Shown here piece by piece: positions 3,787 to 60,949 of a stretch of DNA of 64,000 bases. The notes beneath the pieces were generated by a model. The model saw only the letters and a program-made list of their open reading frames with translations. It was not told where the DNA came from and did no database searches. Origin of the DNA: Xanthomonas sp. 10-10. Lineage in GTDB: Bacteria; Pseudomonadota; Gammaproteobacteria; Xanthomonadales; Xanthomonadaceae. The stretch lies in the NCBI RefSeq assembly GCF_040182365.1, contig NZ_CP144460.1, positions 4,578,935 through 4,642,934 on the forward strand, given 5' to 3'. The position numbers and the translations under genes are program-made. How positions within the stretch are numbered: the stretch's first letter is position 1; each line of letters opens with the position of its first letter.

Positions 3787-4914
3787 TCAGCCGCGACCGG
3801 CGGCAGTCAACGGCCGCGCTGCTGGCCGCAGCAGCTTGTCGCGCAGTTGCAGGAACGGGCGCTCCACCACGTAATGCAACAGCGCGCCACCCAGCACTGC
3901 CGCCAGGCCATACACCGCAAATGCCAGCACACCCCGCCCCTCCAGCGCCGGGCCGAACCATCCCTGGGTGAGATGGAACACGGCCTTGTGGGTCAGATAC
4001 AGGCTGTAGGAGATGGCTGCCAGCCAAGCCGCGCCCGGCACGCGCAAACCGCCAAGCACACCGCTACTGGCGGTGCCGGCGAGCACCAGCAAGGCCAGTC
4101 CCAGCGACAGCACCGGCCAGCCCACCGCATTGCCGATCAGGCCGGTGCGCTCGCGGAACAGCCACAGTGCCAGCGCCAGAATCGCCACGCCGGCACACAG
4201 AATGGCGTTGCCGTGCTGCTGCAGCCGTTGCCACAGCGTGGGGCGAAACACCTTCAGCACCGCCAGTACGACACCGGCCAGCAGGCCGTCCAGACGATTC
4301 CAGGTCGGGTAGTAGATGTCTTCGATAAACCAGTTGCGCTGCAGACCTAGGCCAGCGCTGTCCAGGGCAGTGTTGTGCAACCAGAAGCCGGCGCGCAGCG
4401 CGATGCCCGCGATTACCACCGCCATGCACAGCATCACAAACCGCGCTGCAGAGGGTCGACGCAGCAGCAGCGTCGCCAGCAACGGAAACACCAGATAGAA
4501 ATGTTCTTCCACGCACAGCGACCAGGCGTGCGAGAACGCGGCATCACGGCCGTAGTCGACGAACAGGTTCAGGGTGAAGGTGACGAACATCCACCACGGC
4601 GCCAACCCGGGGGACTCGCGAAAATCCGGCCACACCATGTAGATCACCAGCACCAGCAAGAACGCCGGCAGGATGCGCAACGCGCGGCGCAGATAGAACT
4701 CCTTGAAATCCAGGCGTTGCCCGCGCGCCAGCGGCCTCAGCACCTGCGTGCCGATCAAAAACCCGCTGAGCACGAAGAACAGGTCCACCCCCATCCAGCC
4801 ATAGCGCGACAGCCATGCCCAGTCCGGCCCCAGCCCACCGACCACAAACGAATGGAACAGCATCACCCAGACGATGGCGATACCACGCAGCAGGTCCAGG
4901 GCGGGATAGCGCAT
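3787..4914 (-). CDS. Membrane acyltransferase family 3 protein (OafA/OpgC-like O-acyltransferase)
   Basis: It is a multi-TM protein. The start is taken at MRYPALDLLRG, and LLRGIAI...FFVLSGFLI is typical of PF01757. The ORF extends upstream to 5163, so the chosen start is an inference. Confidence 0.75.
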   Translation of the reverse strand: MRYPALDLLRGIAIVWVMLFHSFVVGGLGPDWAWLSRYGWMGVDLFFVLSGFLIGTQVLRPLARGQRLDFKEFYLRRALRILPAFLLVLVIYMVWPDFRESPGLAPWWMFVTFTLNLFVDYGRDAAFSHAWSLCVEEHFYLVFPLLATLLLRRPSAARFVMLCMAVVIAGIALRAGFWLHNTALDSAGLGLQRNWFIEDIYYPTWNRLDGLLAGVVLAVLKVFRPTLWQRLQQHGNAILCAGVAILALALWLFRERTGLIGNAVGWPVLSLGLALLVLAGTASSGVLGGLRVPGAAWLAAISYSLYLTHKAVFHLTQGWFGPALEGRGVLAFAVYGLAAVLGGALLHYVVERPFLQLRDKLLRPAARPLTAAGRG

Positions 4915-5176: not shown

Positions 5177-6508
5177 TCAGGCCACCGCCGCCTGCTCGAT
5201 TCGTGTCATCCGCGCGCCTGGATGCAACAGCCCCCACGCTTCCAGTTGATCGACTGCACTGCGCACGCCGTCTTCGTCGCGGATGCGCTGGCCCAGCGCG
5301 CGTGCCGCCGCACGCATGGCCGGGGCACTGGCCTGGCGCAATGCCTCGGCCAGCGTCTCCGGCTGCAAGCCGGCACGCACCAGGGCCGGTGGCGCCACGC
5401 CACGTCGTGCCAGGCAGTGCGCCCAGAACGGTTGGTCGTAGCCGAACGGCAACACCACCGACGGAATCCCGGCCGTCAGCGCAGCACCGGTGGTGCCGGC
5501 GCCGCCGTGGTGCACGGCTGCGGTCACCCGTGGAAACAACCAATCGTGCGGCGCTTGGTCCAGATGGAAGAAACGCCCGGCGTCATCCGCAGCGGCGGTG
5601 TCGGCGGTTTCCAGCCCGCCCCAGCCACTGGCCAGCAAGGCGCGTTGCCCGGTCAGGCGCACGGCGGCCTTGACCGTGGCGGTGAGCTGCACCGCATCGC
5701 GGCTGGTCATGCTGCCGAAGCCGATATACAACGGCGGCGGCCCGGCCTGCAGAAACGCCTGCAATGCGGCAGGCGGTTGCCATTGCGGCTGCGGCAGTTG
5801 CCAGAATCCGCAGACCTGCGCGCTTTGCGGCCAGTCCGGCGGACGTGGGCACAGCTGCGCGCTGTAACCGTAGATCACACGCAGCGCGCTGCGGTCCGGG
5901 CCTCGCCACGGATACGCCGGCAGCCCCAGCGCCGGCCGCACGATATCGTTGAGCGCCGGGCGCATCAGCTGCCAGCCGGCAAACCGCACCGCGTGGTGCA
6001 AGGCCACGCTCACACGCCCGGGCAGACGCACGTTGGGCATCACCATCAACGGCAGATGGCGCGAGGCCGTGAGCGGTTGCAGCTGTGCAAAGCACACCGG
6101 CACCCCATAGGCCTGACCCAGGCTATGCGCAAGGAAACTTGCGCTGCCCACGCCCAGGATCAAGCCGGCATCGGCGCACGCCGCCCGGCCCTGCTCTGCC
6201 CAGTCGCGTGCCCAGCTCAGCAGCTGTGCGCGCAATGTGCCCCAGATACCGCGCCAGCCGCCACGCATTTCTGCAACGTCCGGGTTGCCCTGCAGCAACT
6301 TCTGGTGGTCGCCGCTGAGCGGGAAAAACTCCAGCCCGTTGGCGCGAATCAATGCCTCGAAGTTGGTGCTGGTCAGTACCCGCACCAGGTAACCGCGCTG
6401 CTGCAGACCGCGGCCCAGCGCGATGATCGGGCGCACATCGCCGTGCGTGCCCAGGGTGGCGATGACGACCGGGCGGTTGGCTGCAGCCGAAGCGAGAGAC
6501 TCAGGCAT
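5177..6508 (-). CDS. Glycosyltransferase family 1, RhlB/MGT/UGT-like (nucleotide-sugar dependent)
   Basis: The N-terminal ATLGTHGDVRP matches the GT1 GSRGD-type motif. The C-terminal half carries a UDP-sugar binding signature (HHGGAGTT). Its start overlaps the NRPS stop by 8 nt. Confidence 0.8.
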   Translation of the reverse strand: MPESLASAAANRPVVIATLGTHGDVRPIIALGRGLQQRGYLVRVLTSTNFEALIRANGLEFFPLSGDHQKLLQGNPDVAEMRGGWRGIWGTLRAQLLSWARDWAEQGRAACADAGLILGVGSASFLAHSLGQAYGVPVCFAQLQPLTASRHLPLMVMPNVRLPGRVSVALHHAVRFAGWQLMRPALNDIVRPALGLPAYPWRGPDRSALRVIYGYSAQLCPRPPDWPQSAQVCGFWQLPQPQWQPPAALQAFLQAGPPPLYIGFGSMTSRDAVQLTATVKAAVRLTGQRALLASGWGGLETADTAAADDAGRFFHLDQAPHDWLFPRVTAAVHHGGAGTTGAALTAGIPSVVLPFGYDQPFWAHCLARRGVAPPALVRAGLQPETLAEALRQASAPAMRAAARALGQRIRDEDGVRSAVDQLEAWGLLHPGARMTRIEQAAVA

Positions 6509-9500
6509 ATTCGGCTACCCCGTCGTTGGCACTGGCGCTGGCGATGCTGGCATCGCGCTGCGGCACCTGTGCAGTGGCCTGGTGCAGCAGCGCACATAGC
6601 GTTGCCGAGTGCGCAGCCGACAGCATCGAGTGATGATCGCTGTCCAGGGCGTACAGATGCAGCGTGCGCACATACGGACGCCATGCCTGCGGCCGGTAAT
6701 CCACCCATTGCGCCTCGTCGCCACCGGAGCTCATACGCACGCTGGCTTCGACGAACAGCACATCCTGGTTCAATGTGCGCGGCCGGTGACGCCGCGCCAG
6801 GTGCAGGTGATGCTGGGTCACTGCGCCCAGGTCGTCCAGCAGCGTGGGGCGCTGCTTCAGCAACTGCTGCACCGCCGGCAAGGTGGTCAAGCCGTAGTGA
6901 TCGCACAACAGGCTGGCCAGCTGAGCCACGGTGGTCGGCATCGGTTGGTCGTGCGCCAGCGTCAGCCCGAGCGCATGTACCGATGCACGTACGTTTTCCG
7001 CTTCGGGCAGTGCGGCGGCCTGTTCCAGATGCGGGTAGCTGTCGAGCATCGCCAGCAACTCGACCTGTTCGCCCAGGTCATGCAATTCGGCGGCCATGGC
7101 GTGCGCGATCAGGCCGCCCAGCGACCAGCCCATCAAGCGATACGGGCCATGCGGCTGCACGCTGCGCAGACGCGCCAGATAATCGCGGGCGATCGCCTCG
7201 ATGCTTTCAGGACGGTGCTGCGGGTCGCTCAATGCCGGCGACTGCAATGCGTACACCGGCCACTGCGGATCGAGCTGGCCAAGCAGGGTGAGATACGACC
7301 AGCCCAGGCCGATGACTGGATGGATGCAGAACAACGGCGTGACGCCCGCGCTGCCTGCGCGCATCGGCAACAGCACGCTCAGCGGGTCGTTGGGTGCCTG
7401 CGCGCTGCGTTTGATCACCTCCGACAGGCCGGCAATCGTCGGCGCATGGAACAGCGCGCCCAGCGGCAGCTCCACGCCGAACAGTTGCGGGAAGCGTGCC
7501 GCCATCTCTGCCGCCCGTAGCGAATCGCCACCGAGCTCGAAGAAGTTGTCGTCCACCCCCACCACCTCGATGCCCAGCACCTCCTGCAGCAGGGCCGCCA
7601 GTTGATGTTCGAGTGCATCGCGCGGCGCCACATGCGCACGCTTGGGCAATGCGCCCGGCGCGGGCAAGGCGCGGCGATCCAGCTTGCCATTGGCCGTCAG
7701 CGGCAACGCCGGCAGTGGCATCCACAGGCTGGGAATCATCGAGGCCGGCAGACGCTGTTGCAGATGGGCGCGCAGCAACTCGCTCGATGGCGTGTTGCCA
7801 TGCTTGCCCACCACGTAGGCGAGCAGTTGCACGGCGTTGTCGCCATCGTTGTGCGCAACCACCGCCACCTGCGCCACCTGCGCATGCAGCAGCAATGCAT
7901 TTTCGATTTCCGCCGGCTCCACGCGGTGGCCGCGGATCTTCAATTGCGCATCGGCGCGGCCGATGAATTCCAGCAGGCCGTCGCGACGCTGACGTACGCG
8001 GTCGCCGGTGCGGTACATGGTGCTGCCGTCGTCGGCGAACGGGTCGCGCAGGAAACGCTCGCTGGTGAGCTGGCGCTTGCCGCGATAGCCCTTGGCCACG
8101 CCGGCACCGCCGATGTACAGCTCGCCGATCGCACCGGTCGGCAACGGCTGCCGCTGCGCATCCAGCACATAGACGCGTGTGTTGAGCAGCGGCCTGCCGA
8201 TTGGCGGCGCGGCCGCATCGGTCAACTGCAGCGGCATGATGGTCGACCAGATGGTGGTTTCGGTCGGCCCGTACAACTGGGTCAGGCGCCCAACCCGGCT
8301 CAACAATTGCGTCGCCAACTCGGGCACCAGGGCCTCGCCACCGACAAGGGCATGGATGCGATCCAGCGCCAGATCCTGATTGGCCAGCAGGATGCGCCAT
8401 AGCGACGGCGTGGCCTGCACCAGGCTGATCTGCTCGTGGACGATCAGGCGCGACAGACTGCGCGGATCGTGACTGATGCCGGCCGGTGCGATGACCACGC
8501 GCGCGCCCACCAGCAATGGCAGATACAGCTCCAGCCCGGCGATGTCGAAGGTGATGGTGGTGACCGCCAGCACGCGGTCGCGCGGACGCAAGGCGAGCTC
8601 GTGTTCCATCGCATGCAGGAAATTGAACAGGTTGCGATGGCTGATCTCCACGCCCTTGGGCGTGCCGGTGGAGCCGGAGGTGTACAGCACGTACGCCGTC
8701 CCATCCGGAGTCGCCCTTGGGGCGATCGCCGCCGGCAGCTGCGCCGGGCGCGGGTCCAGCCAGACCATGCCGCCAAGCAGATAGCGCTCGCACAATGCCG
8801 GCTCGCAGACCAGCGCAATCGCACCGGAATCGTTGAGCATCTGCCGATTGCGCGCCGCCGGGCTTTCCGGGTCCAGCGGCAGGTAGGCCGCGCCGCTCCA
8901 CATGATGGCCAGCAAGGCCACCAACAGATGCTCGCTGCGCGGCAACGCGACAGCGACCACATCGCCAGGGCGCACCCCATCGGCCACCCATTGCGCAGCG
9001 ATCCGCGAGGCGAGCTCGCACAGCGTGGCGTAGTCCAGGGTGCGGTTTTCGTATTGCACGACAACGGCCGCAGGCATGATCTCGGCACGCTGCAACATGC
9101 CGTGCAACAACGTGGCCGGCTCCGGCAGCGTTGCGGCGGTGTGATTCCAGGTGTGCAGCAACCGGTGGCGCTCTTGCTCGCCCAGCACGTCCACTTCACC
9201 CAGCGCGCATTCCGGGTTTGCCAGCACGGAATCGGCCAGATGGGTCAGGCGACGGCAGTGTTCGGCCAGCTCGTCGCTGTCGTACAACGCCGGATTGGCG
9301 TCCAGATCGAAGCGCAGGGCCGCGCCGTCGCCACGCTCGTAGCAAAAAATGGTCAGATCGTCGGCCGGGCCGTTGCACAGGTTATGCGGTATCGCGTACG
9401 CCTCGCCAAAGCGCAGCGCGTAATCGAAGGCTTCGATATTGACGGCCAGGCGGGCGAACTTCTGGTCGATGCCGAACATGCCGATGTCGCGGCGTACGTC

Positions 9501-10487
9501 CTCGAAGCGATATTGCTGATGCCGCAAGGCATGCCTGACTACCGATGCGACCTGCCCAAACAACGCATGGATCGGCTGCTGCGGGTCCATCTTCAGGCGC
9601 AGCGAGATCACATTGGCCACCAACCCGGCAGTCTGGCGGTAACGCGCATTGATGCGGCCGGTCACCGGCATCGCCAGCACCAGATCTTCGGCACCGGTGC
9701 AGCGGTAGTAATAGGCGGCGATCAGCGAGATCAGCATCTGCGGCAGGCTGGCGCCGTAGTCCTTGCCCATCGCACGCAGGCGCACCACCTGCTGCGGCGA
9801 AAACTGCCCGGTGCCGCGCAACAACCCGGTGGACAGATGATTGCCCGGGCGTGCCAGGGTTGCCGGTGGCGGCAGATCGGCCAGCTGCTGCATCCAGTAG
9901 TCGCGATCGCGCTGGAAGCGGTCGGAGGCGCGGTACTGCTGCTCCATCTCCACCAGCGACAGCGCACTGCCGTAGTGCGCAGGTTCCGGCTCCACGCCTG
10001 CGGCGTACGCGTTGTACAGCACCGACATGCGCTGCATCATGATCGATGCGCAATAACCGTCCATCACCAGATGGCTGACGCACTGCACCCACATATGGTG
10101 GTCTTCGCCGAGCCGGAACACCGCGCAATGCCACAGCGGCCCATGCTCCAGGTTTTCCGGCTGGCGGATCTGTTCGTCCACCCAGTGCTCGGCGGCATTG
10201 CGCGGTGCGGGATCTTCGCTGACGTTGAGGTAGGGAACCGGCGCCGTGTACTCGGGCAGGATCACCTGCCGCGGCACGCCGTCGTGCTCCACGATGCACA
10301 GCCGCAGCGTGTCGAACTCGCGCGCCAGCTGCAACGTGGCGCGGATCAATAGCGCAGGGTCCAGTGGACCGAACATCTCCAGTGCCTCGGACAACATCAA
10401 GGTGTTGTCGGTATGCAACTTGCTGGCCACCCACAGGCCGCGTTGCGCTCTGGTCAAGGGAAACAGCGGGGCGGCATCGGCGTGCAT
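6501..10487 (-). CDS. Single-module non-ribosomal peptide synthetase, C-A-T-TE (1328 aa)
   Basis: The C domain carries SHLVMDG (an HHxxxDG variant). A-domain motifs are LYTSGSTGTPKG, FDIAG, YGPTE, YRTGD and NGKLDR. The PCP has LGGDSL and the thioesterase has GWSLGG. AAGGAAG SD lies 7 nt before the ATG. Confidence 0.9.
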   Translation of the reverse strand: MHADAAPLFPLTRAQRGLWVASKLHTDNTLMLSEALEMFGPLDPALLIRATLQLAREFDTLRLCIVEHDGVPRQVILPEYTAPVPYLNVSEDPAPRNAAEHWVDEQIRQPENLEHGPLWHCAVFRLGEDHHMWVQCVSHLVMDGYCASIMMQRMSVLYNAYAAGVEPEPAHYGSALSLVEMEQQYRASDRFQRDRDYWMQQLADLPPPATLARPGNHLSTGLLRGTGQFSPQQVVRLRAMGKDYGASLPQMLISLIAAYYYRCTGAEDLVLAMPVTGRINARYRQTAGLVANVISLRLKMDPQQPIHALFGQVASVVRHALRHQQYRFEDVRRDIGMFGIDQKFARLAVNIEAFDYALRFGEAYAIPHNLCNGPADDLTIFCYERGDGAALRFDLDANPALYDSDELAEHCRRLTHLADSVLANPECALGEVDVLGEQERHRLLHTWNHTAATLPEPATLLHGMLQRAEIMPAAVVVQYENRTLDYATLCELASRIAAQWVADGVRPGDVVAVALPRSEHLLVALLAIMWSGAAYLPLDPESPAARNRQMLNDSGAIALVCEPALCERYLLGGMVWLDPRPAQLPAAIAPRATPDGTAYVLYTSGSTGTPKGVEISHRNLFNFLHAMEHELALRPRDRVLAVTTITFDIAGLELYLPLLVGARVVIAPAGISHDPRSLSRLIVHEQISLVQATPSLWRILLANQDLALDRIHALVGGEALVPELATQLLSRVGRLTQLYGPTETTIWSTIMPLQLTDAAAPPIGRPLLNTRVYVLDAQRQPLPTGAIGELYIGGAGVAKGYRGKRQLTSERFLRDPFADDGSTMYRTGDRVRQRRDGLLEFIGRADAQLKIRGHRVEPAEIENALLLHAQVAQVAVVAHNDGDNAVQLLAYVVGKHGNTPSSELLRAHLQQRLPASMIPSLWMPLPALPLTANGKLDRRALPAPGALPKRAHVAPRDALEHQLAALLQEVLGIEVVGVDDNFFELGGDSLRAAEMAARFPQLFGVELPLGALFHAPTIAGLSEVIKRSAQAPNDPLSVLLPMRAGSAGVTPLFCIHPVIGLGWSYLTLLGQLDPQWPVYALQSPALSDPQHRPESIEAIARDYLARLRSVQPHGPYRLMGWSLGGLIAHAMAAELHDLGEQVELLAMLDSYPHLEQAAALPEAENVRASVHALGLTLAHDQPMPTTVAQLASLLCDHYGLTTLPAVQQLLKQRPTLLDDLGAVTQHHLHLARRHRPRTLNQDVLFVEASVRMSSGGDEAQWVDYRPQAWRPYVRTLHLYALDSDHHSMLSAAHSATLCALLHQATAQVPQRDASIASASANDGVAEYA

Positions 10488-10977
10488 TGCAAGCTTCCTT
10501 TTGTGTGGCGCGCGGTCGCCCGGAGCGCCCTGGCCGCATTGCGGTCAAAGTGACGCCGGATCAGCACCTGGTAATGAAACGCAAGATAGAAAACACCATC
10601 GACTGCCGGCAGATGCCGGCAATACACAGTGGAAACGCACAATGGACAGGCAACTACGAGGCGACAGGCACGATCGAAACCCCGATGTGCAGATGTCTGA
10701 TTGGAGCAACTTGCATCCCGACAAGTTAAACAGACACTAACAATTCGTCTTCGGACAGAACCGTGCAAAAATCACGAATTGCGCGTGAGGTGCAAAATTT
10801 TTTTACCGAAGTGTGATTTCAACTAGTGTTCTGGATGCATAGCTGCAGGCAGACGCAATGCCACACCGATGCGCATTGCAAGAAAAGCACCTGGAATGCA
10901 GCGTCAAATGCGCAATGCTCTGCGCCCGGCAAGCGAACAGACGCTGCGCTTATCGGGTTACTCGCAGCGAGCAGTAC

Positions 10978-11230
10978 GCATAAGACCAGTGCGCGCGCCA
11001 GCGTTGATACGGCTGTATTTCTAGCCAATCACTGCGTAAAACGGCGGGCATTTGGCATGCATGCGCCATCTGCAACCACAGCGCATGGGATGTCGATGTC
11101 CTGAGCGCAACAATGGATAGGATGCGGCGCCCGCCCCGCTTCGACGATCGCCAAGCATAAGACCAGTACGCATGCAGGCGTTGATGCGCCTGCGTCGTGT
11201 GCAAATCACTGCACGAAACACGCTGTTTTC
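10978..11230. repeat. Two paralogous ~75-bp direct repeats (10978-11052 and 11155-11230) in the noncoding region upstream of the NRPS operon
   Basis: Both copies start with the identical 13-mer GCATAAGACCAGT and share the motifs GCGTTGAT and CAAATCACTGC. Overall identity is ~75%. Confidence 0.6.
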
Positions 11231-11577
11231 TGCAGCAACCTCGCCGGTGGTCGCACGATCACGCAAGCGTCGCCTGCGTGTCATCGGCATGAAGCGTCGC
11301 TGGGTTTCGCTGCTGGTGCTGGTGCTGCGACGCTGCGCAGACCGCAATGCATGGTGTAGCTGAGCCCGCCTGACACACGACCTTAAGCCGCGCCATCAAG
11401 ACGCCACCGTGCGATGAAGATCGCGTGCGACGTGGCGGATGCTGGTCGCCGCATTGCGCCGTTGGGCAATGCGGCGACCAGTGCCCTGCACGGGCTTCCA
11501 CACCGGCAGCGCACGAAGCGGATTGCTCGATGACAAGGATCAACGCGCTGCGGGGCAGGCCCGCAGCGCGCGATGCA

Positions 11578-13464
11578 TCAGCCCAACGGCTCGTCGGACA
11601 GATAGGTATAGCCGGTCAGGCCGGCCTCCAGCGCGTCGTGCAGCTCCTGCGCGCGCTCGGGCGACAGTTGCGCTGCGGCGATGCGTTCGGCATAGGTCGC
11701 GCGCAGCGTGTCCAGCTGGTAGCCCACGTAGTCCAGCATCACATCGGTGGTGTCGCCGCGACGCTGCTGCACGATGCGATAGCCCTCGCCGTCCACGGCA
11801 ACTTCCACCGCATCGGTATCGCCGAACAGGTTATGGATATCGCCGAGGATTTCCTGGTAGGCACCGACCAGGAAGAAACCGATGCGATAACTCTCGCCCG
11901 GGTTCAAGGTGTGCAACGGCATCGAGCTGTCCAGACTCTCGTTCTCGACGTAGGTCTTGACCATGCCGTCGGAGTCGCAGGTCATGTCGGCAATGATGCC
12001 GCGCCGCTGCGGGGCTTCGTTCAGGCGCTCGATCGGCACGATCGGGAACACCTGATCGATCGCCCACACATCCGGGATCGACTCGAACACGCTGAAGTTG
12101 ACGAAGTACTTGTCCACCAGCCGCTCGTTGAGCTCGTCCAGCACCGGGCGGTGGCTCTTCTCGTCGAAGCTCAGGCGTGCACGCACACCGTGCGCGATGG
12201 CATAGAACAGGTCGTCGATGCGCGCGCGGTGGGTCAGGTCAATCTGGCCCAGTGCATACGCGCTCAAGCCTTCGGCATGGAAGTGCTGCGCCTCCTGGAA
12301 CAATTCCACCGCCGGTCGCACATCGAGCTCGTCGTGGATCTCGCGCAGGTGGCGGATCGCTGCCGGCTCGTCGTCGTGCGCGTCCGGCACGCGGCCTTCC
12401 GGCGCCTGCTCCACCTCGGACACGTTGGCGATCAGCACCGCATGGTGGGCGGTCATCGCGCGGCCGCATTCGGTGACGATGCGCGGCGGGGTCAGGCCGT
12501 GTTCTTCGCAGGCGCTGGCCAACGGCTGCACGATGTTGCTGGCGTAGGAATGCAGGCCGTAGTTGATCGAGCAATAGCTGCGCGAGCGGGTGCCTTCGTA
12601 ATCGATGCCCAGGCCGCCGCCGACGTCCACGTGGCTGATCTTCGCGCCCAGCCGCGACAACTCCACGAAATAGCGCGTGGCCTCGCGCATGCCGTTGGCG
12701 ATGTCGCGCACATTGGAGATCTGCGAGCCCATGTGGAAATGCAGCAGCTTCAGGCTGTCGGCGTACTCGGTGTCGCGCAGCGTCTTCCACAGGTCCAGCA
12801 CCTGCCGCGGCGACAGCCCGAACTTGGCCTTGTCGCCGCCGCTGTTCTGCCATTTGCCCGCGCCCAGCGAGGCCAGGCGCATGCGCACGCCCAGGCCCGG
12901 CTTGACGTCCAGCGCGCGCGCCTCTTCCAGCACCAGCTTCAGCTCGGAGGGCTTTTCGATGACGATGAAGGTCTGCAGGCCGAGCTTGCGGCCGATCAGC
13001 GCCAGGCGGATGTATTCGCGGTCCTTGTAGCCGTTGCAGACGATCAGCCCGCCCGGACGCGACAGCGCCAGCACTGCCATCAGCTCCGGCTTGCTGCCCG
13101 CTTCCAGGCCGAAGCCCTCGCCATGGTGGCTGGCCAGCGTGCCGGCCACGCCACGGTGCTGGTTGACCTTGATCGGGTACACCGCGGTATAGCCGCCGGC
13201 GTAATCCCACTCGGACTGCGCCTGCGCGAACGCCGCCTGCAGCTTGCCCAGGCGCTGGCCGAGGATGTCGGGGAAACGCACCAGCAGCGGCAGCTTGGCG
13301 CCGGCCGCACGCGCGGCATCCACCACCTCCGGCAAGGACACCGACGGGCCGTCGACGGTGGGGGTGACCACCACGTGGCCGGCGGCGTTTACATCGAAAT
13401 ACCCATCGGCCCAATGCGGGATCGAGTAGGTCTTGCGGGCTTGGTCGAGGGACCAATCGCTCAT
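11578..13464 (-). CDS. speA: Biosynthetic arginine decarboxylase
   Basis: It aligns with E. coli SpeA from TYSIPHWADGYFDV onward. The start is taken at MSDWS. The upstream in-frame extension to 13548 would contain the leader hairpin. Confidence 0.9.
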   Translation of the reverse strand: MSDWSLDQARKTYSIPHWADGYFDVNAAGHVVVTPTVDGPSVSLPEVVDAARAAGAKLPLLVRFPDILGQRLGKLQAAFAQAQSEWDYAGGYTAVYPIKVNQHRGVAGTLASHHGEGFGLEAGSKPELMAVLALSRPGGLIVCNGYKDREYIRLALIGRKLGLQTFIVIEKPSELKLVLEEARALDVKPGLGVRMRLASLGAGKWQNSGGDKAKFGLSPRQVLDLWKTLRDTEYADSLKLLHFHMGSQISNVRDIANGMREATRYFVELSRLGAKISHVDVGGGLGIDYEGTRSRSYCSINYGLHSYASNIVQPLASACEEHGLTPPRIVTECGRAMTAHHAVLIANVSEVEQAPEGRVPDAHDDEPAAIRHLREIHDELDVRPAVELFQEAQHFHAEGLSAYALGQIDLTHRARIDDLFYAIAHGVRARLSFDEKSHRPVLDELNERLVDKYFVNFSVFESIPDVWAIDQVFPIVPIERLNEAPQRRGIIADMTCDSDGMVKTYVENESLDSSMPLHTLNPGESYRIGFFLVGAYQEILGDIHNLFGDTDAVEVAVDGEGYRIVQQRRGDTTDVMLDYVGYQLDTLRATYAERIAAAQLSPERAQELHDALEAGLTGYTYLSDEPLG

Positions 13465-26953: not shown

Positions 26954-28075
26954 TCAAGCGCCCTGCAACGCAGCGCTGCGTTGGCGCACCGGCTTGGGCC
27001 GGCTGGGGAAGGCATGCCGCACGATCCGCCACATCACCTGGCCGAACTGACGCGGCAGCGAGCCGGTGTTGTAGTGCTGGCCGTAGCGCGCACAGATCTG
27101 CCTCACTTCGACCGCGATCTGCGCATAACGATTGGCCGGCAGGTCCGGGTAGAAGTGATGCTCGATCTGGTGGCTCAGATTGCCCGACAGCACGTTCATC
27201 AGCTTGCCGCCGGTCAGATTCGACGAGCCGCGCAACTGACGCAGATACCAGTGGCCGCGCGACTCGTTGCGGATCGATTCCTTCGGAAACACTTCCGCAT
27301 CGGCGGTGAAGTGACCGCAGAAGATGATCACGAAGGTCCAGATGCTGCGCAGCACGTTGGCGGCCAGGTTGCCCAGCAGCACGGTCAGGAAGAACGGGCC
27401 TGCCAGCAGCGGGAACACGATGTAGTCCTTGAGCATCTGGCGGCCGATCTTGCGGCCCACCGGCAGGAACGAGGCGCGCAATTCGGCCGCCTTCATCTTG
27501 CCCGCGAACCACCGGCCCAGGCGCAGGTCCTGGATCGCCACGCCCCATTCGAACAACAGCGCAAACACCACCGCGATGAACGGCTGCAGCAGGTAGAACG
27601 GGCGCCAGCGCTGCTCGGGGAAGATGCGCAGCAGGCCGTAGCCGATGTCGTCGTCCATGCCGCGCACGTTGGTATAGGTGTGGTGCTTGAAGTTGTGCGT
27701 CTTGCGCCAGTTGTCGCCGGTGGCAACGATGTCCCACTCGTAGGTGTTGCCGTTGAGCTGAGGGTCGCCCATCCAGTCGTACTGACCGTGCATGACGTTG
27801 TGGCCCAGCTCCATGTTCTCCAGGATCTTGGACAGGGTCAGCAGCACCACACCGGCGATCCAGGCCGGAATCAGCACGCTGTGCACGAACGCGCCCAAAA
27901 ACAACAGCGCGCGGCCAGCCACGCCGGTCCAGCGCACCGCCGCCACGATGCGGCGGATGTAACGCGCATCGGCGGCGCCGACCTGGGCCTGCACGCGGGC
28001 GCGGATGGCATCGAGTTCGTCGCCGAAGGACTGCAGTTCGGCAGCGGACAGGGCGCGGTTATGGACTCGGCTCAT
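26954..28075 (-). CDS. desB: Membrane acyl-CoA/acyl-lipid fatty acid desaturase (DesB-like)
   Basis: It carries the histidine boxes HNVMHGQY, HNFKHH and HQIEHH and is multi-TM. Confidence 0.8.
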   Translation of the reverse strand: MSRVHNRALSAAELQSFGDELDAIRARVQAQVGAADARYIRRIVAAVRWTGVAGRALLFLGAFVHSVLIPAWIAGVVLLTLSKILENMELGHNVMHGQYDWMGDPQLNGNTYEWDIVATGDNWRKTHNFKHHTYTNVRGMDDDIGYGLLRIFPEQRWRPFYLLQPFIAVVFALLFEWGVAIQDLRLGRWFAGKMKAAELRASFLPVGRKIGRQMLKDYIVFPLLAGPFFLTVLLGNLAANVLRSIWTFVIIFCGHFTADAEVFPKESIRNESRGHWYLRQLRGSSNLTGGKLMNVLSGNLSHQIEHHFYPDLPANRYAQIAVEVRQICARYGQHYNTGSLPRQFGQVMWRIVRHAFPSRPKPVRQRSAALQGA

Positions 28076-28084
28076 GAGGATTCC

Positions 28085-29179
28085 TTACAGATCCAGGATC
28101 AGGTCAGTGCTCGGGGCACTGATGCACAGGCGGACCTGTGCGGTGGGTTCGTTGCTGCGCTCACCGGTCAACAGGTGGCGCGTGGTGCCGGACTGACGCG
28201 CGCAGGCGCAGCTGTTGCAGATGCCCATGCGGCAGCCGTGCTTCGGCCGCAGGCCTTGCGCTTCCAGCCCTTCCAGCAGCGACTGGCCGCGCGGCAGGGT
28301 CAGCGTACGGCCGCTGCGTGACAGCTGGACCTGCACCTCACCGGCTTCGCCGTCATCCAGCACCGGCACGCTGAAGGCTTCGGCCTGAAACGCCGCCACC
28401 TGGCCTTCCAGCCGCGCGCGCGCTGCCTGCACGAAGCCGCCCGGCCCGCAGACCATGACGTGGCGGCTGGAGAGATCGGCGATCTGCTGCAACGGGTAGG
28501 TATCGATGCGCGCAGCTGGCGCGGCGCCTTCGCGAGTGGTCAGCAGCCGCACACGCAGGCGCGGGTGTGCAGCGGCCATCGCCTCGAATTCGTCGACGAA
28601 GCAGGCTTCGTCGCGCTGGCGCACCCAGTACAGCAGGTCCACGTCCATCGGCATGCCGGCCTGCGCGGCGGCCTGCAGCAGCGCGCGCATCGGGGTGATG
28701 CCCGAGCCGGCAGCCAGCAGCAACAGCGGCGTCGGGGCAGTCGGCAGCAACATGTCGCCGAAGGCCGGATCCAGCGACACCACCGTCCCGATCGGCGCAT
28801 CGCCGGCCAGGTAGCGGCTGACCAGCCCGCCCTCGATCGCCTTGACGGTGATGGCCAGGCGGCCATCGGCCAGCACGGTCGGGCTGTAGCTGCGCAGCAG
28901 GCGGCGGCCGTCGATCTCCACGCCCAGGCTCACGTGCTGGCCGGCCTGCAGGCCCTGCCAGTGGCCGTTGGCCTGAAGCACCAAGGTCACCGCGTCGCGG
29001 CTGGCAGTGCTGCGCTCGACCAGACGGGCCATCGGCCGATCCAGCGTCCACAGCGGATTGATCCGGGTTGCCCAGAAATCGAACAGCTGTGGCGACACCA
29101 GCCGGCGCGCCAGCCGTGCGGACAGCGGGGCTTTGCTCTTTGGAGTGGATGCCAGGCTCATAGGTCGCACTATACGCAT
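28085..29179 (-). CDS. desC: Ferredoxin-NAD(P)H reductase with a C-terminal 2Fe-2S ferredoxin domain (DesC-like desaturase partner)
   Basis: It has an FAD-binding RxYS motif, an NAD-binding GSGITP motif, and a C-terminal CRMGICNSC 2Fe-2S cluster motif. It lies 9 nt downstream of the desaturase gene. An alternative start is at 29161. Confidence 0.75.
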   Translation of the reverse strand: MRIVRPMSLASTPKSKAPLSARLARRLVSPQLFDFWATRINPLWTLDRPMARLVERSTASRDAVTLVLQANGHWQGLQAGQHVSLGVEIDGRRLLRSYSPTVLADGRLAITVKAIEGGLVSRYLAGDAPIGTVVSLDPAFGDMLLPTAPTPLLLLAAGSGITPMRALLQAAAQAGMPMDVDLLYWVRQRDEACFVDEFEAMAAAHPRLRVRLLTTREGAAPAARIDTYPLQQIADLSSRHVMVCGPGGFVQAARARLEGQVAAFQAEAFSVPVLDDGEAGEVQVQLSRSGRTLTLPRGQSLLEGLEAQGLRPKHGCRMGICNSCACARQSGTTRHLLTGERSNEPTAQVRLCISAPSTDLILDL

Positions 29180-29253
29180 GCATGCACATGCGTGTATACA
29201 GTTGTATATTCCTAGAAGGGCTATGATTCATCCCCTCGCCCGGCCGCCGCCCC
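29180..29253. promoter_or_regulatory. Divergent desT/desCB control region with an imperfect ~28-bp palindrome
   Basis: TATACGCATGCATGCACATGCGTGTATA is a near-perfect inverted repeat. TGTATACA lies in a 55%-AT island. Confidence 0.5.
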
Positions 29254-29901
29254 ATGACCTCCATCGCCCTGCCTTCCCACGACGCGCCGCCGTCACGCAA
29301 GCCGGCGATTTCACGCGAGGACCTGATTGCCGCGGCGCTGTCGCTGATCGGCCCGCACCGCAGCCTGTCCACGCTGAGCCTCAGGGAAGTGGCACGCGAA
29401 GCCGGGATTGCGCCAAACAGCTTCTACCGCCAGTTCCGCGACATGGATGAGCTCGCGGTAGCGCTGATCGATCTGGCCGGCCGCTCGCTGCGCACCATCA
29501 TCGGGCAAGCCCGCCAGCGCGCCACCTCCACCGACCGCAGCGTGATCCGCGTGTCCGTGGAGGCGTTCATGGAGCAGCTGCGCGCCGACGACAAGCTGCT
29601 GCACGTGCTGCTGCGCGAAGGCGCGGTGGGCTCGGATGCCTTCAAGCAGGCGGTGGAGCGTGAGCTGACCTATTTCGAAGACGAACTGCGCGTGGACCTG
29701 ATCCGCCTGGCCGCCGCCGACAACGCCAAGTTGCACGCACCGGCGCTGGTGTCCAAGGCGATCACCCGCCTGGTCTTTGCGATGGGAGCGGTGGCGATGG
29801 ACTCACCGCCGGAAAAGGACCCGGAACTGATCGAACAGATCTCGCAGATGCTGCGCATGATTCTGACCGGCGCGCGTACGCTGGGCACCCACGGCGGCTG
29901 A
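29254..29901 (+). CDS. desT: TetR-family transcriptional regulator (DesT-like)
   Basis: The N-terminal HTH reads LSLREVAREAGIAPNSFYRQFRDMDEL. It is divergent to the desaturase operon. Confidence 0.7.
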   Translation: MTSIALPSHDAPPSRKPAISREDLIAAALSLIGPHRSLSTLSLREVAREAGIAPNSFYRQFRDMDELAVALIDLAGRSLRTIIGQARQRATSTDRSVIRVSVEAFMEQLRADDKLLHVLLREGAVGSDAFKQAVERELTYFEDELRVDLIRLAAADNAKLHAPALVSKAITRLVFAMGAVAMDSPPEKDPELIEQISQMLRMILTGARTLGTHGG

Positions 29902-30952: not shown

Positions 30953-31020
30953 GGTAACGGCTCGTGGTCGAGCGGCGGCACTATCCGCAGGCGCGGTTCA
31001 ATTCCGCATTACCCACCACT
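30953..31020 (+). pseudogene. Decayed tRNA remnant (~65 nt) ending in CCA
   Basis: The acceptor stem is GGGTAAC/ATTACCC. A T-arm-like GCGGTTCAATTCCGC is followed by discriminator A and CCA. The anticodon arm cannot be folded and the element is too short. Confidence 0.4.
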
Positions 31021-31089
31021 GGATAGCTCAGAGGGTAGAGCAACAGATTTCAAATCTGTCTGTCGCGGGTTCGATTCCCGCTCCAAGCA
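31017..31089 (+). tRNA. tRNA-like element with a UCA anticodon; the 5' acceptor strand is unpaired at positions 1-3 (probable pseudo-tRNA)
   Basis: The D arm is canonical (TAGCTCAGAGGGTAGAGC). The anticodon stem ACAGA/TCTGT has the loop TTTCAAA. The T arm is GCGGGTTCGATTCCCGC. The acceptor 3' strand TCCAAGC pairs only 4/7 with the 5' strand CACTGGA, and no CCA follows. Confidence 0.4.
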
Positions 31090-56318: not shown

Positions 56319-56921
56319 CTACAACCAGCCTTTCTGCCTTGCCAACCGATACGCTTCGATGCGATTGGCAACGCCCAACTTGCCGATGCACTCGGACAGG
56401 TAATTGCGTACGGTGCCATGCGAGAGCTGCAGCTGCTGTGCGATCTCGCTGGCCGAGCGGCCTTCGCCGGCCAGCCGCAGCACGGTGCGTTCGCGCTCGC
56501 TCAACGGGTCGGCTTCCACCCAGGCATCCATCGCCAGTTGCGGGTCGATCACCCGGCCGCCCCGGTGCACCTGGCGCAGCGCACTGACCAACTGTTCGGC
56601 CGGCGCGTCCTTGAGCAGATAGCCGGCTACGCCGGCCTCCAGCGCGCGGCGCAGGAATCCTGGCCGGGCAAAGGTAGTGACGATCATCACCCGCACCGGC
56701 AGCGCCTGACGCTGGATGCGCTGCGCCAGTTCCAGGCCGCTCAACCCGGGCATCTCGATATCGGTGACCAGCACATCCGGCTGCAACCGCTGCAGCTCGC
56801 GCCAGGCGGCTTCGCCATCGCCGGCGCTGCCGACCACGTCGATGTCCTCTTCCAGCCCCAGCAGGGCCACCAGGGCGCCGCGCAGCAGCGCCTGGTCTTC
56901 GGCCAACAACACCCGGATCAT
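56319..56921 (-). CDS. NarL/FixJ-family response regulator (LuxR-type HTH)
   Basis: The receiver domain reads VLLAEDQ...D. The C-terminal HTH reads LSERERTVLRLAGEGRSASEIAQQLQLSHGTVRNYL. Confidence 0.85.
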   Translation of the reverse strand: MIRVLLAEDQALLRGALVALLGLEEDIDVVGSAGDGEAAWRELQRLQPDVLVTDIEMPGLSGLELAQRIQRQALPVRVMIVTTFARPGFLRRALEAGVAGYLLKDAPAEQLVSALRQVHRGGRVIDPQLAMDAWVEADPLSERERTVLRLAGEGRSASEIAQQLQLSHGTVRNYLSECIGKLGVANRIEAYRLARQKGWL

Positions 56922-57009
56922 CGCGCGCGCTCGTCTGTGTGCAACGGCTGAGCACGATAACAGCGCTGACGCATGACGTGCATGGCAGCGCTGCGCCAGC
57001 CAGGAGCGA

Positions 57010-58197: not shown

Positions 58198-58458
58198 CGG
58201 AATGGATCCGTGGGAGTGAGCGGATTCTGCCACCGCCGCGCTCGCCTGGGCGCGCTCCGTGGCAGGACAGGATGGGTGAGCGGCCTCATGCATGTGGAGT
58301 GAAGCTGGCTGCGGATGGCACGCCTTGCGGCGGCGCGGCAGCCAGCGCATTGATGGTGGAGCGGCACCCGTAACGCAAACGGAGTCGGTAGTCAGGCCTC
58401 GGCGCAAGCATGCTCGCTCGCGCGGGCTACGCACAGTCGCGCCTGTCATGGCATGCAG

Positions 58459-58472
58459 GTGACACCTGTCAC
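58459..58472. promoter_or_regulatory. CRP/Clp-like site GTGACA-cc-TGTCAC (GTGA-N6-TCAC core) in the divergent HK/efflux promoter region
   Basis: It is a perfect 6-bp inverted repeat with the spacing of the TGTGA-N6-TCACA class. It lies 160 bp upstream of the MFP ATG. Confidence 0.4.
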
Positions 58473-58630
58473 TGGTCGCGGCGGCCGGCCAGCCGCATGC
58501 TGCGCAGCACCTTGCAGTTGCACCGTACCGGCTGACCGTTGGTCGCCTCGCTGCAGTTGGTGACTTCCGGCAGCTTGCGGCGCGCCCTGCAGGCGGTCAC
58601 ATTCTGCGCAGCCTTCTGTCCTGGTTATCG

Positions 58631-59875: not shown

Positions 59876-60247
59876 TGGCTGGCCCGGCGAACACAGCGCC
59901 GGTCCGCGTTATCGCTCGCAGCACCGTAGCGATGTTGTCCCCACCACGCTGCATCCGGATGGGCTTGCTGCAATGAAACATCCTCGCTGGAGAGCCGAAC
60001 GCGATCCAGCCCATCGGCCTGAAGCAGGTTGTTGTGCTGTTTGAAGGGCTTCGAACGGCATCGAACACGAGGTTACCCGCGAGTGCTGCATACGGCGATC
60101 CGGCTGGGTTGGCTCGCCTCGCACACCGCGCAGCAACGCGCTGCCGCTTGATCGCCTTACCGTCGTCGTGCATCGCATCGCCGCTCTTGCAGTCGCAGTC
60201 GCTGTGCCGCACCGCTTCCTCATCCCATTGCATCGCCAGGAGTCGCC

Positions 60248-60937
<690 letters not shown>

Positions 60938-60949
60938 GGGAGCGCTGCC

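What the first reader, a model, noticed from the sequence alone, without database searches (positions are those of the whole stretch)
7667..9110. A-domain specificity code reads as glycine (DILQ[V/L]GLIWK)
Anchoring on FDIAG (D235, I236, L239), on QLYGPTETTIW (L322, I330, W331), and on G at 301 and Q at the 278-equivalent position gives D-I-L-Q-(V/L)-G-L-I-W-K. This is the canonical glycine Stachelhaus code. Manual alignment has a 4-residue indel uncertainty between the two anchors.
Basis: seen in the sequence. Interest (0 to 1): 0.6.

Follow-up and report, generated by a model that had tools for sequence, protein, structure and literature searches.

The report
Glycine-activating single-module NRPS in Xanthomonas
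The amino-acid-selecting domain of this Xanthomonas enzyme does carry the standard glycine code, but that was published for its orthologues in 2013; the enzyme and the sugar-transferase gene next to it probably make a still-unisolated sugar–fatty-acid–glycine lipid.

Summary
Window 7667-9110 (minus strand) is the adenylation domain of a 1328-aa C-A-T-TE non-ribosomal peptide synthetase (6501-10487, minus). A profile alignment to GrsA-PheA (1AMU) gives D648 I649 L652 Q691 L714 G716 L738 I746 W747 K935, that is DILQLGLIWK. Position 299 is Leu714, not Val715.

The pocket segment aligns without gaps to DhbF-A1 (PDB 5U89, solved with a glycine analogue). It is identical there at all nine code positions in that segment. 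The next best match with a known substrate is AB3403, solved with glycine.

This is not new. Royer et al. 2013 listed DILQLGLIWK (Gly) for the orthologues XALc_0364, XCC3867 and XAC3922, and for Alcanivorax ABO_1784.

The context points to a product:
- The C domain is of the starter (lipoinitiation) type.
- A GT1 glycosyltransferase gene overlaps the NRPS stop codon by 8 bp.
- An Acyl_transf_3 gene follows.
- The NRPS-GT pair recurs in several phyla, nearly always with a Gly-type code.

The inferred product is a glycosyl-(3-hydroxyacyl)n-glycine lipid, like the Alcanivorax glycine-glucolipid. The "EntF/serine/siderophore" annotation is wrong. The gene is under purifying selection (dN/dS about 0.1). 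Interest is low to moderate: a known prediction and an unknown product.

The parts
6501..10487 (-). Single-module NRPS gene (1328 aa), domain order C-A-T-TE
   Evidence: ORF and translation. Pfam finds Condensation, AMP-binding, AMP-binding_C, PP-binding and Thioesterase. It is 95% identical to Xanthomonas sp. WHRI 10064A and 82-90% identical to the proteins of other Xanthomonas species. dN/dS is 0.08-0.10 against X. pisi and X. prunicola.
9156..10463 (-). Condensation domain, starter (lipoinitiation) type. The catalytic motif reads SHLVMDG (residues 138-144, window 10056-10076).
   Evidence: Pfam residues 9-444. The best PDB matches are the RzmA starter C domain 7C1K/7C1H/7C1P (237 bits), then CDA-C1, ObiF1 and EntF. 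PMC7804268 identifies 7C1H and 7C1K. Royer et al. placed the orthologues' C domains in the starter clade.
7683..9086 (-). Adenylation domain (the finding). Core motifs present: YTSGSTGTPKG, YGPTE, YRTGD, GRxDxQxKIRGxRVE and NGKLDR.
   Evidence: Pfam residues 468-801 and 860-935.
8247..8546 (-). Nine of the ten specificity-code residues: D648 (8544-8546), I649 (8541-8543), L652 (8532-8534), Q691 (8415-8417), L714 (8346-8348), G716 (8340-8342), L738 (8274-8276), I746 (8250-8252), W747 (8247-8249)
   Evidence: hhalign against GrsA, ungapped alignment to DhbF-A1 5U89, codon check.
7683..7685 (-). K935, the Lys517 equivalent in motif A10 (NGKLDR); tenth code residue
7416..7604 (-). Carrier (T/PCP) domain. 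The phosphopantetheine-attachment Ser is Ser989 in GGDSL (residues 986-990, window 7518-7532).
   Evidence: Pfam PP-binding at residues 962-1024. The motif is nearly invariant in the family.
6582..7337 (-). Thioesterase domain. The nucleophile motif is GWSLGG (residues 1120-1125, window 7113-7130).
   Evidence: Pfam Thioesterase at residues 1051-1302. The G, S and G of the GxSxG motif are nearly invariant in the family; a nearly invariant Asp and His further downstream in the TE region may be the rest of the catalytic triad, which I did not verify.
5177..6508 (-). GT1-family glycosyltransferase (443 aa). Its ATG overlaps the NRPS stop codon by 8 bp (ATGCCTGA).
   Evidence: Pfam Glyco_transf_28 and EryCIII-like_C. 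The best PDB match is sterol 3-beta-glucosyltransferase 5XVM/5GL5 (E = 3e-46), then GtfD/A/B. The overlap was read directly. The pairing with the NRPS is conserved in Lysobacter, Dyella, both X. albilineans paralogues, Acidobacteriaceae, Spongiibacter, Janthinobacterium and Acetobacteraceae.
3787..4914 (-). Membrane acyltransferase (Acyl_transf_3, 375 aa as called on the public contig). Possibly a tailoring O-acyltransferase.
   Evidence: Pfam PF01757. Gene call on the identical Logan contig. It is also present downstream of the X. albilineans XALc_0364-type locus, but absent from the Lysobacter, Dyella and XALc_1145-type loci. Its membership of the system is inferred only.

Best explanation
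The region is the glycine-activating adenylation domain of a free-standing C(starter)-A(Gly)-T-TE NRPS in a Xanthomonas chromosome, closest to X. pisi.

Proposed steps:
1. The A domain adenylates glycine. Asp648 and Lys935 hold the amino and carboxyl groups. Trp747, hydrogen-bonded to Gln691, fills the side-chain pocket so that only Gly fits, by analogy with DhbF-A1.
2. The A domain loads Gly onto the phosphopantetheine arm at Ser989 of the T domain.
3. The N-terminal starter C domain N-acylates Gly-S-T with a fatty acyl thioester, most likely a 3-hydroxyacyl or oligo(3-hydroxyacyl) thioester on CoA or ACP.
4. The TE releases the N-acyl-glycine, most simply by hydrolysis to a free carboxylate.
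5. The GT1 enzyme, whose start codon overlaps the NRPS stop codon, glycosylates a lipid hydroxyl.
6. The Acyl_transf_3 protein may O-acylate the sugar.

The end product would be a glycosyl-(3-hydroxyacyl)n-glycine surfactant or envelope lipid.

What is shown: the domain order, intact catalytic motifs, the Gly code, the starter-type C domain, conservation of the NRPS-GT pair, and purifying selection. What is inferred: the acyl donor, the mode of TE release, the identity of the sugar, the role of the acyltransferase, and the product itself.
For: Gly code:
- Code extraction.
- Identity to codes already published as Gly for the orthologues, including A. borkumensis ABO_1784.
- For the pocket segment, the glycine-bound structures 5U89 and 4ZXH rank first and third in the PDB; second is 8www, substrate unknown.
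- The Q278-W331 pocket occlusion in DhbF is described in PMC11253843.
- All 24 sequences carrying this exact code are the query or its closest relatives, nearly all from Xanthomonas. Most other Lysobacterales homologues carry DILQLG[F/L/C/M][V/I]WK.

Starter C domain.

NRPS-GT cassette:
- It is conserved across phyla, with Gly-type codes in 14 of the 16 further linked loci checked; one of these, X. euvesicatoria, is truncated after position 301.
- The GT is most similar to a lipid-hydroxyl glucosyltransferase.

Chemistry in related systems:
- A. borkumensis makes Glc-(3-OH-acyl)4-Gly.
- Variovoracins come from an N-terminal-C NRPS followed by a GT1 gene. That paper reports that half of the homologous clusters it aligned have a single NRPS module.
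- Royer et al. proposed amino acid + beta-hydroxy acid + glycosyl for these genes.

Functionality:
- dN/dS is 0.08-0.10.
- XAC3922 and XAC3921 are both higher in wild type than in an rpfF mutant in planta.
Against: - No product has been isolated from any Xanthomonas in the searchable literature.
- The link between ABO_1784 and the glycine-glucolipid is circumstantial. The pathway was described as 'not elucidated' in 2023.
- Nothing in the window explains how an oligo(3-hydroxyacyl) chain would be built.
- Royer et al. noted that X. campestris and X. axonopodis lack the XaPPTase gene, so activation of the T domain is unproven. No PPTase was found among the window genes scanned.
- The X. euvesicatoria ATCC 11633 orthologue carries a frame change.
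- Specificity codes are predictive, not proof. A. borkumensis also makes minor alanine congeners.
Confidence: 0.85

Rival explanations
1. It is an EntF-like, serine-activating siderophore synthetase. Several public annotations say so: JGI 'enterobactin synthetase component F', and X. citri XAC3922 'entF, ATP-dependent serine activating enzyme'.
For: The architecture, C-A-T-TE, is the same as in EntF. The NCBIfam EntF model gives 637 bits, and EntF 5JA1 is a strong PDB hit over the whole length. These annotations are quoted.
Against: - The EntF equivalog score of 637 is far below its curated cut-off of 2400.
- The code DILQLGLIWK differs from serine codes (DVWH[LM]SLVDK) at seven of the ten positions (236, 239, 278, 301, 322, 330 and 331).
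- For the pocket segment, EntF is not among the matches at E <= 1e-8, and the only serine-activating domain listed (FscH) scores 44 bits against 101 for DhbF-A1 (Gly).
- The locus has no DHB-synthesis genes, no aryl carrier and no dedicated receptor. It has a glycosyltransferase gene overlapping the NRPS stop codon instead.
Confidence: 0.02
2. The A domain mainly activates another small amino acid, such as L-Ala, beta-Ala or Ser, despite its Gly-like code.
For: - Codes are imperfect predictors.
- A. borkumensis, whose ABO_1784 has the same code, also makes minor alanine congeners.
- Some family members have diverged codes, so specificity does change within the family: DILWLGLVLK, DIFQLTLVWK, DVLQLALVYK, DILELGMVWK.
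Against: - The match to Gly-assigned domains is exact, and the pocket residues are identical to a Gly-analogue-bound structure.
- The Trp331-Gln278 pair that occludes the side-chain pocket in DhbF is present here.
- In A. borkumensis glycine is by far the dominant residue.
Confidence: 0.06
3. The gene is an inactive relic in this Xanthomonas clade. It cannot be phosphopantetheinylated because the Sfp-type XaPPTase is missing, so the Gly code has no present-day function.
For: - Royer et al. raised this for X. campestris and X. axonopodis.
- No PPTase was found in the window.
- The X. euvesicatoria ATCC 11633 orthologue has a frame change.
Against: - The 4-kb ORF is intact and all catalytic motifs are present.
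- dN/dS is 0.08-0.10 against X. pisi and X. prunicola, and 0.04-0.08 for the A domain.
- Full-length orthologues occur in more than a dozen Xanthomonas species.
- The X. citri genes are expressed and respond to DSF signalling in planta.
- A PPTase could be encoded anywhere else in the genome, which I could not examine.
Confidence: 0.07

Closest known systems
'Short NRPS genes' of Xanthomonas (XALc_0364, XCC3867/XC_3952, XAC3922; Royer et al. 2013, PMC3849588)
   Same: These are orthologues. XALc_0364 is P0016, 66% identical; the X. campestris and X. axonopodis proteins are about 87% identical. They share the C-A-PCP-TE order, the DILQLGLIWK (Gly) signature, the starter-clade C domain and a glycosyltransferase gene overlapping the 3' end by 4-8 bp. 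The X. albilineans locus has the same neighbours on one side, speE and speA.
   Different: Only the species differs; the window is closest to X. pisi DSM 18956. Neither the product nor the function was determined there.
DhbF module 1 A domain (bacillibactin synthetase; PDB 5U89, Geobacillus, with Gly-AVS)
   Same: This is the closest A domain with a known substrate: 427 bits for the whole domain and 101 bits, ungapped, for the pocket segment. The code positions DILQLGLIW are identical. B. subtilis DhbF1 is DILQVGLIWK.
   Different: DhbF is a dimodular siderophore synthetase. Its first C domain takes 2,3-dihydroxybenzoate from an aryl carrier. It needs an MbtH-like protein and has no glycosyltransferase partner.
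AB3403 of Acinetobacter baumannii (PDB 4ZXH/4ZXI)
   Same: It is a free-standing C-A-T-TE module of about 1320 aa, crystallised with glycine and AMP. Its code reads DILQLGVVW in the alignment.
   Different: Similarity is lower: 316 bits for the A domain. From my own knowledge, its gene cluster has no adjacent GT1; I did not test this here.
Alcanivorax borkumensis ABO_1784/ABO_1783 and the glycine-glucolipid
   Same: It has a C-A-PCP-TE NRPS with the DILQLGLIWK code overlapping a glycosyltransferase gene. The organism makes glucose-(3-hydroxyacyl)4-glycine. That is the kind of product predicted here.
   Different: Identity to XALc_0364 is only 38%. A PPTase gene lies next to it there but not here. 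No genetic proof that ABO_1784 makes the lipid was found in the literature I could search.
Variovoracin (rlp) and rhizoleucinoside pathways (PMC12964202)
   Same: An NRPS with an N-terminal lipoinitiating C domain is followed by a GT1 glycosyltransferase of about 440 aa. The products are sugar-(3-hydroxydecanoyl)3-amino acid/peptide surfactants. The paper notes single-module variants.
   Different: - RlpB is dimodular (Ser-Leu) and ends in a reductase domain, giving leucinol, not a TE.
- The sugar is rhamnose.
- An MbtH gene is present.
- No acyltransferase gene lies in that cluster.
SwrW (serrawettin W1 synthetase, Serratia)
   Same: From my own knowledge, not tested here: a unimodular C-A-T-TE NRPS that N-acylates one amino acid with 3-hydroxydecanoate.
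   Different: It activates serine, its TE dimerises and cyclises the product, and it has no glycosyltransferase.

Membership tests
NRPS adenylation domain (ANL superfamily, amino-acid activating) | AMP-binding fold with core motifs A3 (YTSGSTGxPKG), A5 (NxYGPTE), A7 (YRTGD), A8 (GRxDxQVKIRGxRIE) and A10 (NGKxDR) | tested here: met
   Pfam AMP-binding E = 6e-78 and AMP-binding_C E = 6e-11. NCBIfam AA-adenyl-dom scores 403.8, above its cut-off of 317.4. The motifs were located.
Glycine-specific A domain (Stachelhaus code D-I-L-Q-x-G-x-x-W-K) | Residues at GrsA positions 235, 236, 239, 278, 301, 331 and 517 are D, I, L, Q, G, W and K, with hydrophobic residues at 299, 322 and 330 | tested here: met
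   The code is DILQLGLIWK by hhalign against 1AMU. It is identical to the Gly-analogue-bound DhbF-A1 at all nine pocket-segment positions. It fits the pattern reported for 83 of 93 Gly domains.
Glycine-specific A domain | Experimental preference for glycine in adenylation or thiolation | not testable with these tools
   This needs an ATP-PPi exchange or hydroxamate assay, or intact-protein mass spectrometry of the loaded T domain.
Starter (lipoinitiation) condensation domain | An N-terminal C domain of the first module that is closer to characterised starter C domains than to LCL, DCL or dual C/E domains, with the catalytic xHxxxDG motif retained | tested here: met
   The top PDB hits are RzmA-Cs (237 bits) and CDA-C1 (170 bits); ordinary elongation C domains score much lower. 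The motif is SHLVMDG, with the second His kept. I built no phylogeny myself. Royer et al. did so for the orthologues.
Xanthomonas 'short NRPS + overlapping glycosyltransferase' system (Royer et al. 2013) | One module, C-A-PCP-TE, whose 3' end overlaps a glycosyltransferase gene, and orthology to XALc_0364, XCC3867 and XAC3922 | tested here: met
   Domains. Identity to the Xanthomonas proteins is 66-95%. The X. albilineans locus shares the speE and speA neighbours.
EntF (enterobactin synthetase component F) | Score above the NCBIfam equivalog cut-off, a serine code, and ent/DHB gene context | tested here: not met
   It scores 637 bits against a cut-off of 2400. The code is of the Gly type. No ent genes are nearby.
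Glycolipo-amino-acid surfactant pathways (glycine-glucolipid, rhizoleucinoside, variovoracin class) | A product made of sugar, oligo(3-hydroxyacyl) chain and amino acid | not testable with these tools
   Only the gene architecture matches. The product has to be isolated.

The most novel reading that the evidence does not exclude
Xanthomonas plant pathogens make an as yet undescribed, DSF-quorum-sensing-responsive glycosyl-(3-hydroxyacyl)n-glycine lipid, possibly O-acylated. The same is implied for many Lysobacterales, Acidobacteriaceae, Spongiibacter, Janthinobacterium and Acetobacteraceae that carry the same cassette. The conserved C(starter)-A(Gly)-T-TE + GT1 cassette would then be the missing genetic basis of the Alcanivorax glycine-glucolipid class. 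That would make this widespread lipid family predictable from genomes.
Probability: 0.5. Interest if true: 0.5.

Novelty: already known. Interest (0 to 1): 0.25.

Why it matters
The glycine call itself adds nothing new. It repeats a 2013 in-silico result for the orthologous genes.

Its practical value is corrective and predictive:
- Many database entries still name this protein EntF, or a serine-activating siderophore enzyme. That misleads transcriptome interpretation; for example, XAC3922 was counted among iron-uptake genes.
- The real open question is the product. The cassette is conserved under purifying selection across the genus and recurs in distant phyla with the same Gly code. No Xanthomonas metabolite has been assigned to it.
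- If the product is a glycine-glycolipid surfactant or envelope lipid, it could bear on leaf-surface colonisation. It would also supply the missing gene-to-molecule link for the Alcanivorax biosurfactant.

Tried and rejected
- Pairwise MAFFT and BLASTP against GrsA put the single-residue gap just before YGPTE, which gives a spurious Q at position 322. I rejected this in favour of the profile alignment and the ungapped alignment to DhbF-A1.
I rejected it because GGE aligns with GrsA A301-G302-S303.
- In the whole-A-domain PDB ranking LgrA comes first, but only because two of its A domains are summed: 265 + 274 bits. I did not use that as evidence for Gly.
- I looked for a glycine riboswitch or any other RNA element in the 1.1-kb region upstream of the NRPS. 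There was no Rfam hit at the gathering threshold or at E <= 1 apart from an implausible plant miRNA match.
- I looked for a PPTase, an MbtH-like gene, an acyl-CoA ligase, an ACP or an RhlA/PhaC-like gene among the window genes. None was found.
- The Cui et al. 2022 paper (PMC9397105) is not held in the library. Literature searches found no paper linking ABO_1784 genetically to the glycine-glucolipid and none describing a Xanthomonas product.
- PDB entries 8XJZ and 8WWW are close A-domain hits, but I could not trace them to a publication, so their substrates are unknown to me.
A direct comparison with those systems was therefore not possible.
Full report
**What is at the coordinates.** The interval 7667-9110 lies inside one long ORF on the minus strand, 6501-10487, of 1328 aa. 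Pfam divides the protein as follows:
- Condensation, residues 9-444
- AMP-binding, residues 468-801
- AMP-binding_C, residues 860-935
- PP-binding, residues 962-1024
- Thioesterase, residues 1051-1302

It is therefore a complete single C-A-T-TE module. The window has about 66% G+C.

The protein is 95% identical to that of Xanthomonas sp. WHRI 10064A. It is 82-90% identical to those of X. arboricola, X. codiaei, X. campestris, X. hortorum, X. fragariae and others. At locus level the closest genome is X. pisi DSM 18956: 98.6% amino-acid identity for the A domain and 95% for the neighbouring glycosyltransferase.

**Checking the code.** It proved 100% identical to PDB 1amu_A residues 35-527, and the chain numbering equals the Stachelhaus numbering.

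- A profile built from 15 family members and aligned to GrsA (hhalign) maps the ten positions to D648, I649, L652, Q691, L714, G716, L738, I746, W747 and K935. That reads DILQLGLIWK. I confirmed the codons on the DNA.
In 'ALVGGEALVP' the GGE aligns with GrsA A301-G302-S303, and the downstream Pro aligns with P307.
- The query has three extra residues relative to GrsA, two between 278 and 299 and one between 301 and 322.
- Simple pairwise aligners place the single-residue gap immediately before YGPTE, which would give Q at position 322. The profile alignment places it earlier and gives Leu738, the residue that precedes the invariant Tyr of motif A5.

There is also a check with no indel ambiguity. 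Residues 640-760 align without a single gap to the Geobacillus DhbF first A domain (PDB 5U89). All nine code positions in that segment are identical.

**Is it glycine?**
- Royer et al. 2013 list DILQLGLIWK as Gly for several modules, including the orthologues of this gene.
- B. subtilis DhbF module 1, the glycine module of bacillibactin synthetase, has DILQVGLIWK according to PMC4169593. That is 9/10 identical.
- A 2025 compilation reports that 83 of 93 Gly-activating domains from characterised assembly lines share one code that varies only at positions 299, 322 and 330.
- In the PDB search with the pocket segment alone, the ranking is 5U89 (101 bits), 8WWW (99 bits, substrate unknown to me) and 4ZXH, which is AB3403 (79 bits). 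The next hits score 61, 50 and 44 bits, and the 44-bit hit is the serine-activating FscH.
- A 2024 review tabulates 5U89 as solved with a glycine analogue (Gly-AVS) and 4ZXH/4ZXI as solved with glycine and AMP. It reports that in DhbF the pocket is occluded by the Trp at position 331, which hydrogen-bonds to the Gln at position 278. The query has both residues, W747 and Q691.

I could not run NRPSpredictor2, SANDPUMA or any assay. The assignment therefore remains a very well supported prediction.

**Already known.** Royer et al. (BMC Genomics 2013, PMC3849588) described 'short NRPS genes' in X. albilineans (XALc_0364, XALc_1145), X. campestris (XCC3867, XC_3952, Xccb100_4052), X. axonopodis pv. 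citri (XAC3922) and Alcanivorax borkumensis (ABO_1784). Each has one C-A-PCP-TE module with a starter-clade C domain, and each overlaps a glycosyltransferase gene at its 3' end. Their Additional file 3 gives DILQLGLIWK (Gly) for all of these except XALc_1145.

**The rest of the module.**
- The C domain's best solved relatives are the RzmA starter C domain (7C1K/7C1H/7C1P, 237 bits). The next are CDA-C1 (170 bits), ObiF1 and EntF. PMC7804268, on lipoinitiation, is the source of 7C1H and 7C1K. From my own knowledge, at least RzmA-Cs, CDA-C1 and EntF take a non-aminoacyl (acyl or aryl) donor.
- The active-site motif reads SHLVMDG in the Xanthomonas clade and HHxxxDG in the more distant relatives. 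The second, catalytic His is kept.
- The carrier-domain GGDSL motif (Ser989) and the thioesterase GWSLGG motif are present and nearly invariant in the family.
- dN/dS for the whole gene is 0.08 against X. pisi, 0.10 against X. prunicola and 0.25 against X. albilineans. The A domain is the most constrained part against the two close relatives, at 0.04-0.08.

**Genomic context.**
- The NRPS stop codon and the start codon of the next gene overlap by 8 bp (ATGCCTGA).
- That next gene (5177-6508, minus) encodes a GT1 glycosyltransferase (Glyco_transf_28 and EryCIII-like_C). Its best solved relative is yeast sterol 3-beta-glucosyltransferase (E = 3e-46), followed by the vancomycin Gtf enzymes.
- An Acyl_transf_3 membrane acyltransferase follows (3787-4914).
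- The flanking genes are housekeeping genes: argS, an FtsN/SPOR-like gene and a YdfG-like SDR on one side, speA and speE on the other.
- The window genes I scanned include no PPTase, MbtH-like protein, ACP, acyl-CoA ligase or RhlA/PhaC-like enzyme.

**How conserved the cassette is.**
- The NRPS-GT pair is conserved in Lysobacter capsici, Dyella tabacisoli and both X. albilineans paralogues. The third gene differs in each: patatin, penicillin amidase, Acyl_transf_3 or peptidase S10.
- A genome scan with a GT profile also found C-A-T-TE genes next to the GT in Acidobacteriaceae, Spongiibacter, Janthinobacterium, Acetobacter and other Acetobacteraceae.
- Of the 16 further linked loci I examined, 14 carry a Gly-type code. 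One of these 14, the X. euvesicatoria orthologue, is interrupted after position 301, so only its first six positions could be read. The exceptions are Lysobacter capsici (DIFQLTLVWK) and Actinoallomurus, which has a Thr-type code.
- Among the query and its 120 homologues, 24 sequences have DILQLGLIWK exactly, and these are the query and its closest, mostly Xanthomonas, relatives. Most others have DILQLG[F/L/C/M][V/I]WK. Small groups have DILWLGLVLK, DIFQLTLVWK, DVLQLALVYK or DILELGMVWK.

**Most likely function.** The architecture implies four steps: activation of glycine, N-acylation by the starter C domain, release by the TE, and glycosylation of the lipid by the GT. Royer et al. proposed exactly this, an amino acid linked to a beta-hydroxy acid and a glycosyl residue. 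Three known compound families fit this logic:
- The A. borkumensis glycine-glucolipid is glucose-(3-hydroxyacyl)4-glycine, with minor alanine congeners.
- Rhizoleucinoside comes from Bradyrhizobium sp. BTAi1.
- The variovoracins are attributed to a cluster in which an NRPS with an N-terminal C domain is followed by a 439-aa GT1. That paper notes that half of the homologous clusters it aligned have a single NRPS module.

The biosynthesis of the Alcanivorax lipid was still described as unelucidated in 2023. How the oligo(3-hydroxyacyl) chain is assembled is an open question even for variovoracin. The identity of the acyl donor, the sugar, the mode of TE release and the role of Acyl_transf_3 are all inferences.

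**Rival readings.**
- The EntF/serine/siderophore annotation appears in JGI names and in a X. citri transcriptome paper that lists XAC3922 under iron uptake. It fails on three counts: the NCBIfam EntF score is 637 against a cut-off of 2400, the code is not of the Ser type, and the gene context is wrong.
- A different small amino acid as the main substrate is unlikely, given that the pocket is identical to that of DhbF-A1.
- Royer et al. suggested that the genes may be non-functional in species without the XaPPTase. Two observations support this: no PPTase was found in the window, and the X. euvesicatoria ATCC 11633 orthologue has a frame change. Three argue against it: strong purifying selection, the intact motifs, and the joint higher expression of XAC3922 and XAC3921 in wild type than in an rpfF mutant in planta (log2 1.42 and 1.52).

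**Verdict.** The region is an ordinary, well-behaved Gly-type A domain. The unresolved and more interesting matter is the product of the conserved NRPS-GT cassette. I found no report of it in the searchable literature.

Noticed in passing
L007:4100-4300 (Xanthomonas euvesicatoria ATCC 11633, NZ_JAJIUJ010000105.1): The orthologous NRPS gene changes reading frame at about residue 732, inside the A domain between code positions 301 and 322. tblastn shows frame 1 up to L007:4203 and frame 3 from there. This is either a pseudogene in that strain or a draft-assembly error.
   Followed up: partly
window 10488-11577: A 1.09-kb stretch between speA and the NRPS start has no convincing ORF, and G+C for 10001-12000 is lower (0.61 against about 0.67). 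No Rfam family matches it, and there is no glycine riboswitch. It is presumably the promoter and regulatory region of the NRPS-GT operon.
   Followed up: partly
window 10056-10076 (residues 138-144): In the Xanthomonas clade, including the X. albilineans XALc_0364 type, the first His of the C-domain HHxxxDG motif is Ser (SHLVMDG). The XALc_1145 type, Lysobacter, Dyella, Spongiibacter, Acetobacteraceae and the others keep HH.
   Followed up: partly
proteins P0036-P0047 (named members are Dyella), P0076/P0077/P0100 (Lysobacter), P0063/P0094/P0101 (named members are Lysobacter), P0025/P0030 (X. albilineans paralogue): Some members of this single-module NRPS family have codes that depart from the Gly pattern: DILWLGLVLK, DIFQLTLVWK, DVLQLALVYK and DILELGMVWK. 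This suggests other amino acids in some lineages. My alignment gives DILELGMVWK for the XALc_1145 type, whereas Royer et al. printed DMLELGMVWK.
   Followed up: no
L003:13285-19230 (Dyella tabacisoli): Downstream of the NRPS-GT pair this locus carries a penicillin-amidase-family gene, two free-standing condensation-domain genes and a GT2 glycosyltransferase. It is a more elaborate version of the cassette.
   Followed up: no
L009, L010, L012, L013, L018, L021, L023, L036: C-A-T-TE NRPS genes with Gly-type codes lie next to a homologous GT1 gene in Acidobacteriaceae MAGs, Spongiibacter, Janthinobacterium lividum, Acetobacter thailandicus and Acetobacteraceae MAGs. In Janthinobacterium (L013) and one Acetobacteraceae MAG (L023) the NRPS lies after the GT.
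   Followed up: partly
window 6501-10487, public annotations: Public sources name close relatives 'enterobactin synthetase component F' or 'L-serine-[L-seryl-carrier protein] ligase'. The X. citri gene is called entF, a serine-activating enzyme. The NCBIfam EntF model scores only 637 against its cut-off of 2400, so these names are over-annotations.
   Followed up: yes
window 31020-31085 (+): This is the only Rfam hit at the gathering threshold in the window: a tRNA gene (56.9 bits). It matches model positions 4-67 of 71.
   Followed up: no
window 26954-29901: A fatty-acid desaturase gene, a ferredoxin-reductase-type gene (FAD_binding_6, NAD_binding_1, Fer2) and a divergent TetR regulator lie about 16 kb from the NRPS. 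They are not conserved next to the NRPS in the other loci examined, so they are probably unrelated.
   Followed up: no
window 58463-63443 (+): A MacAB-type export system: an HlyD-family membrane-fusion protein, an ABC ATPase and two FtsX/MacB permease genes. It is preceded by a two-component system on the opposite strand (56319-58596).
   Followed up: no
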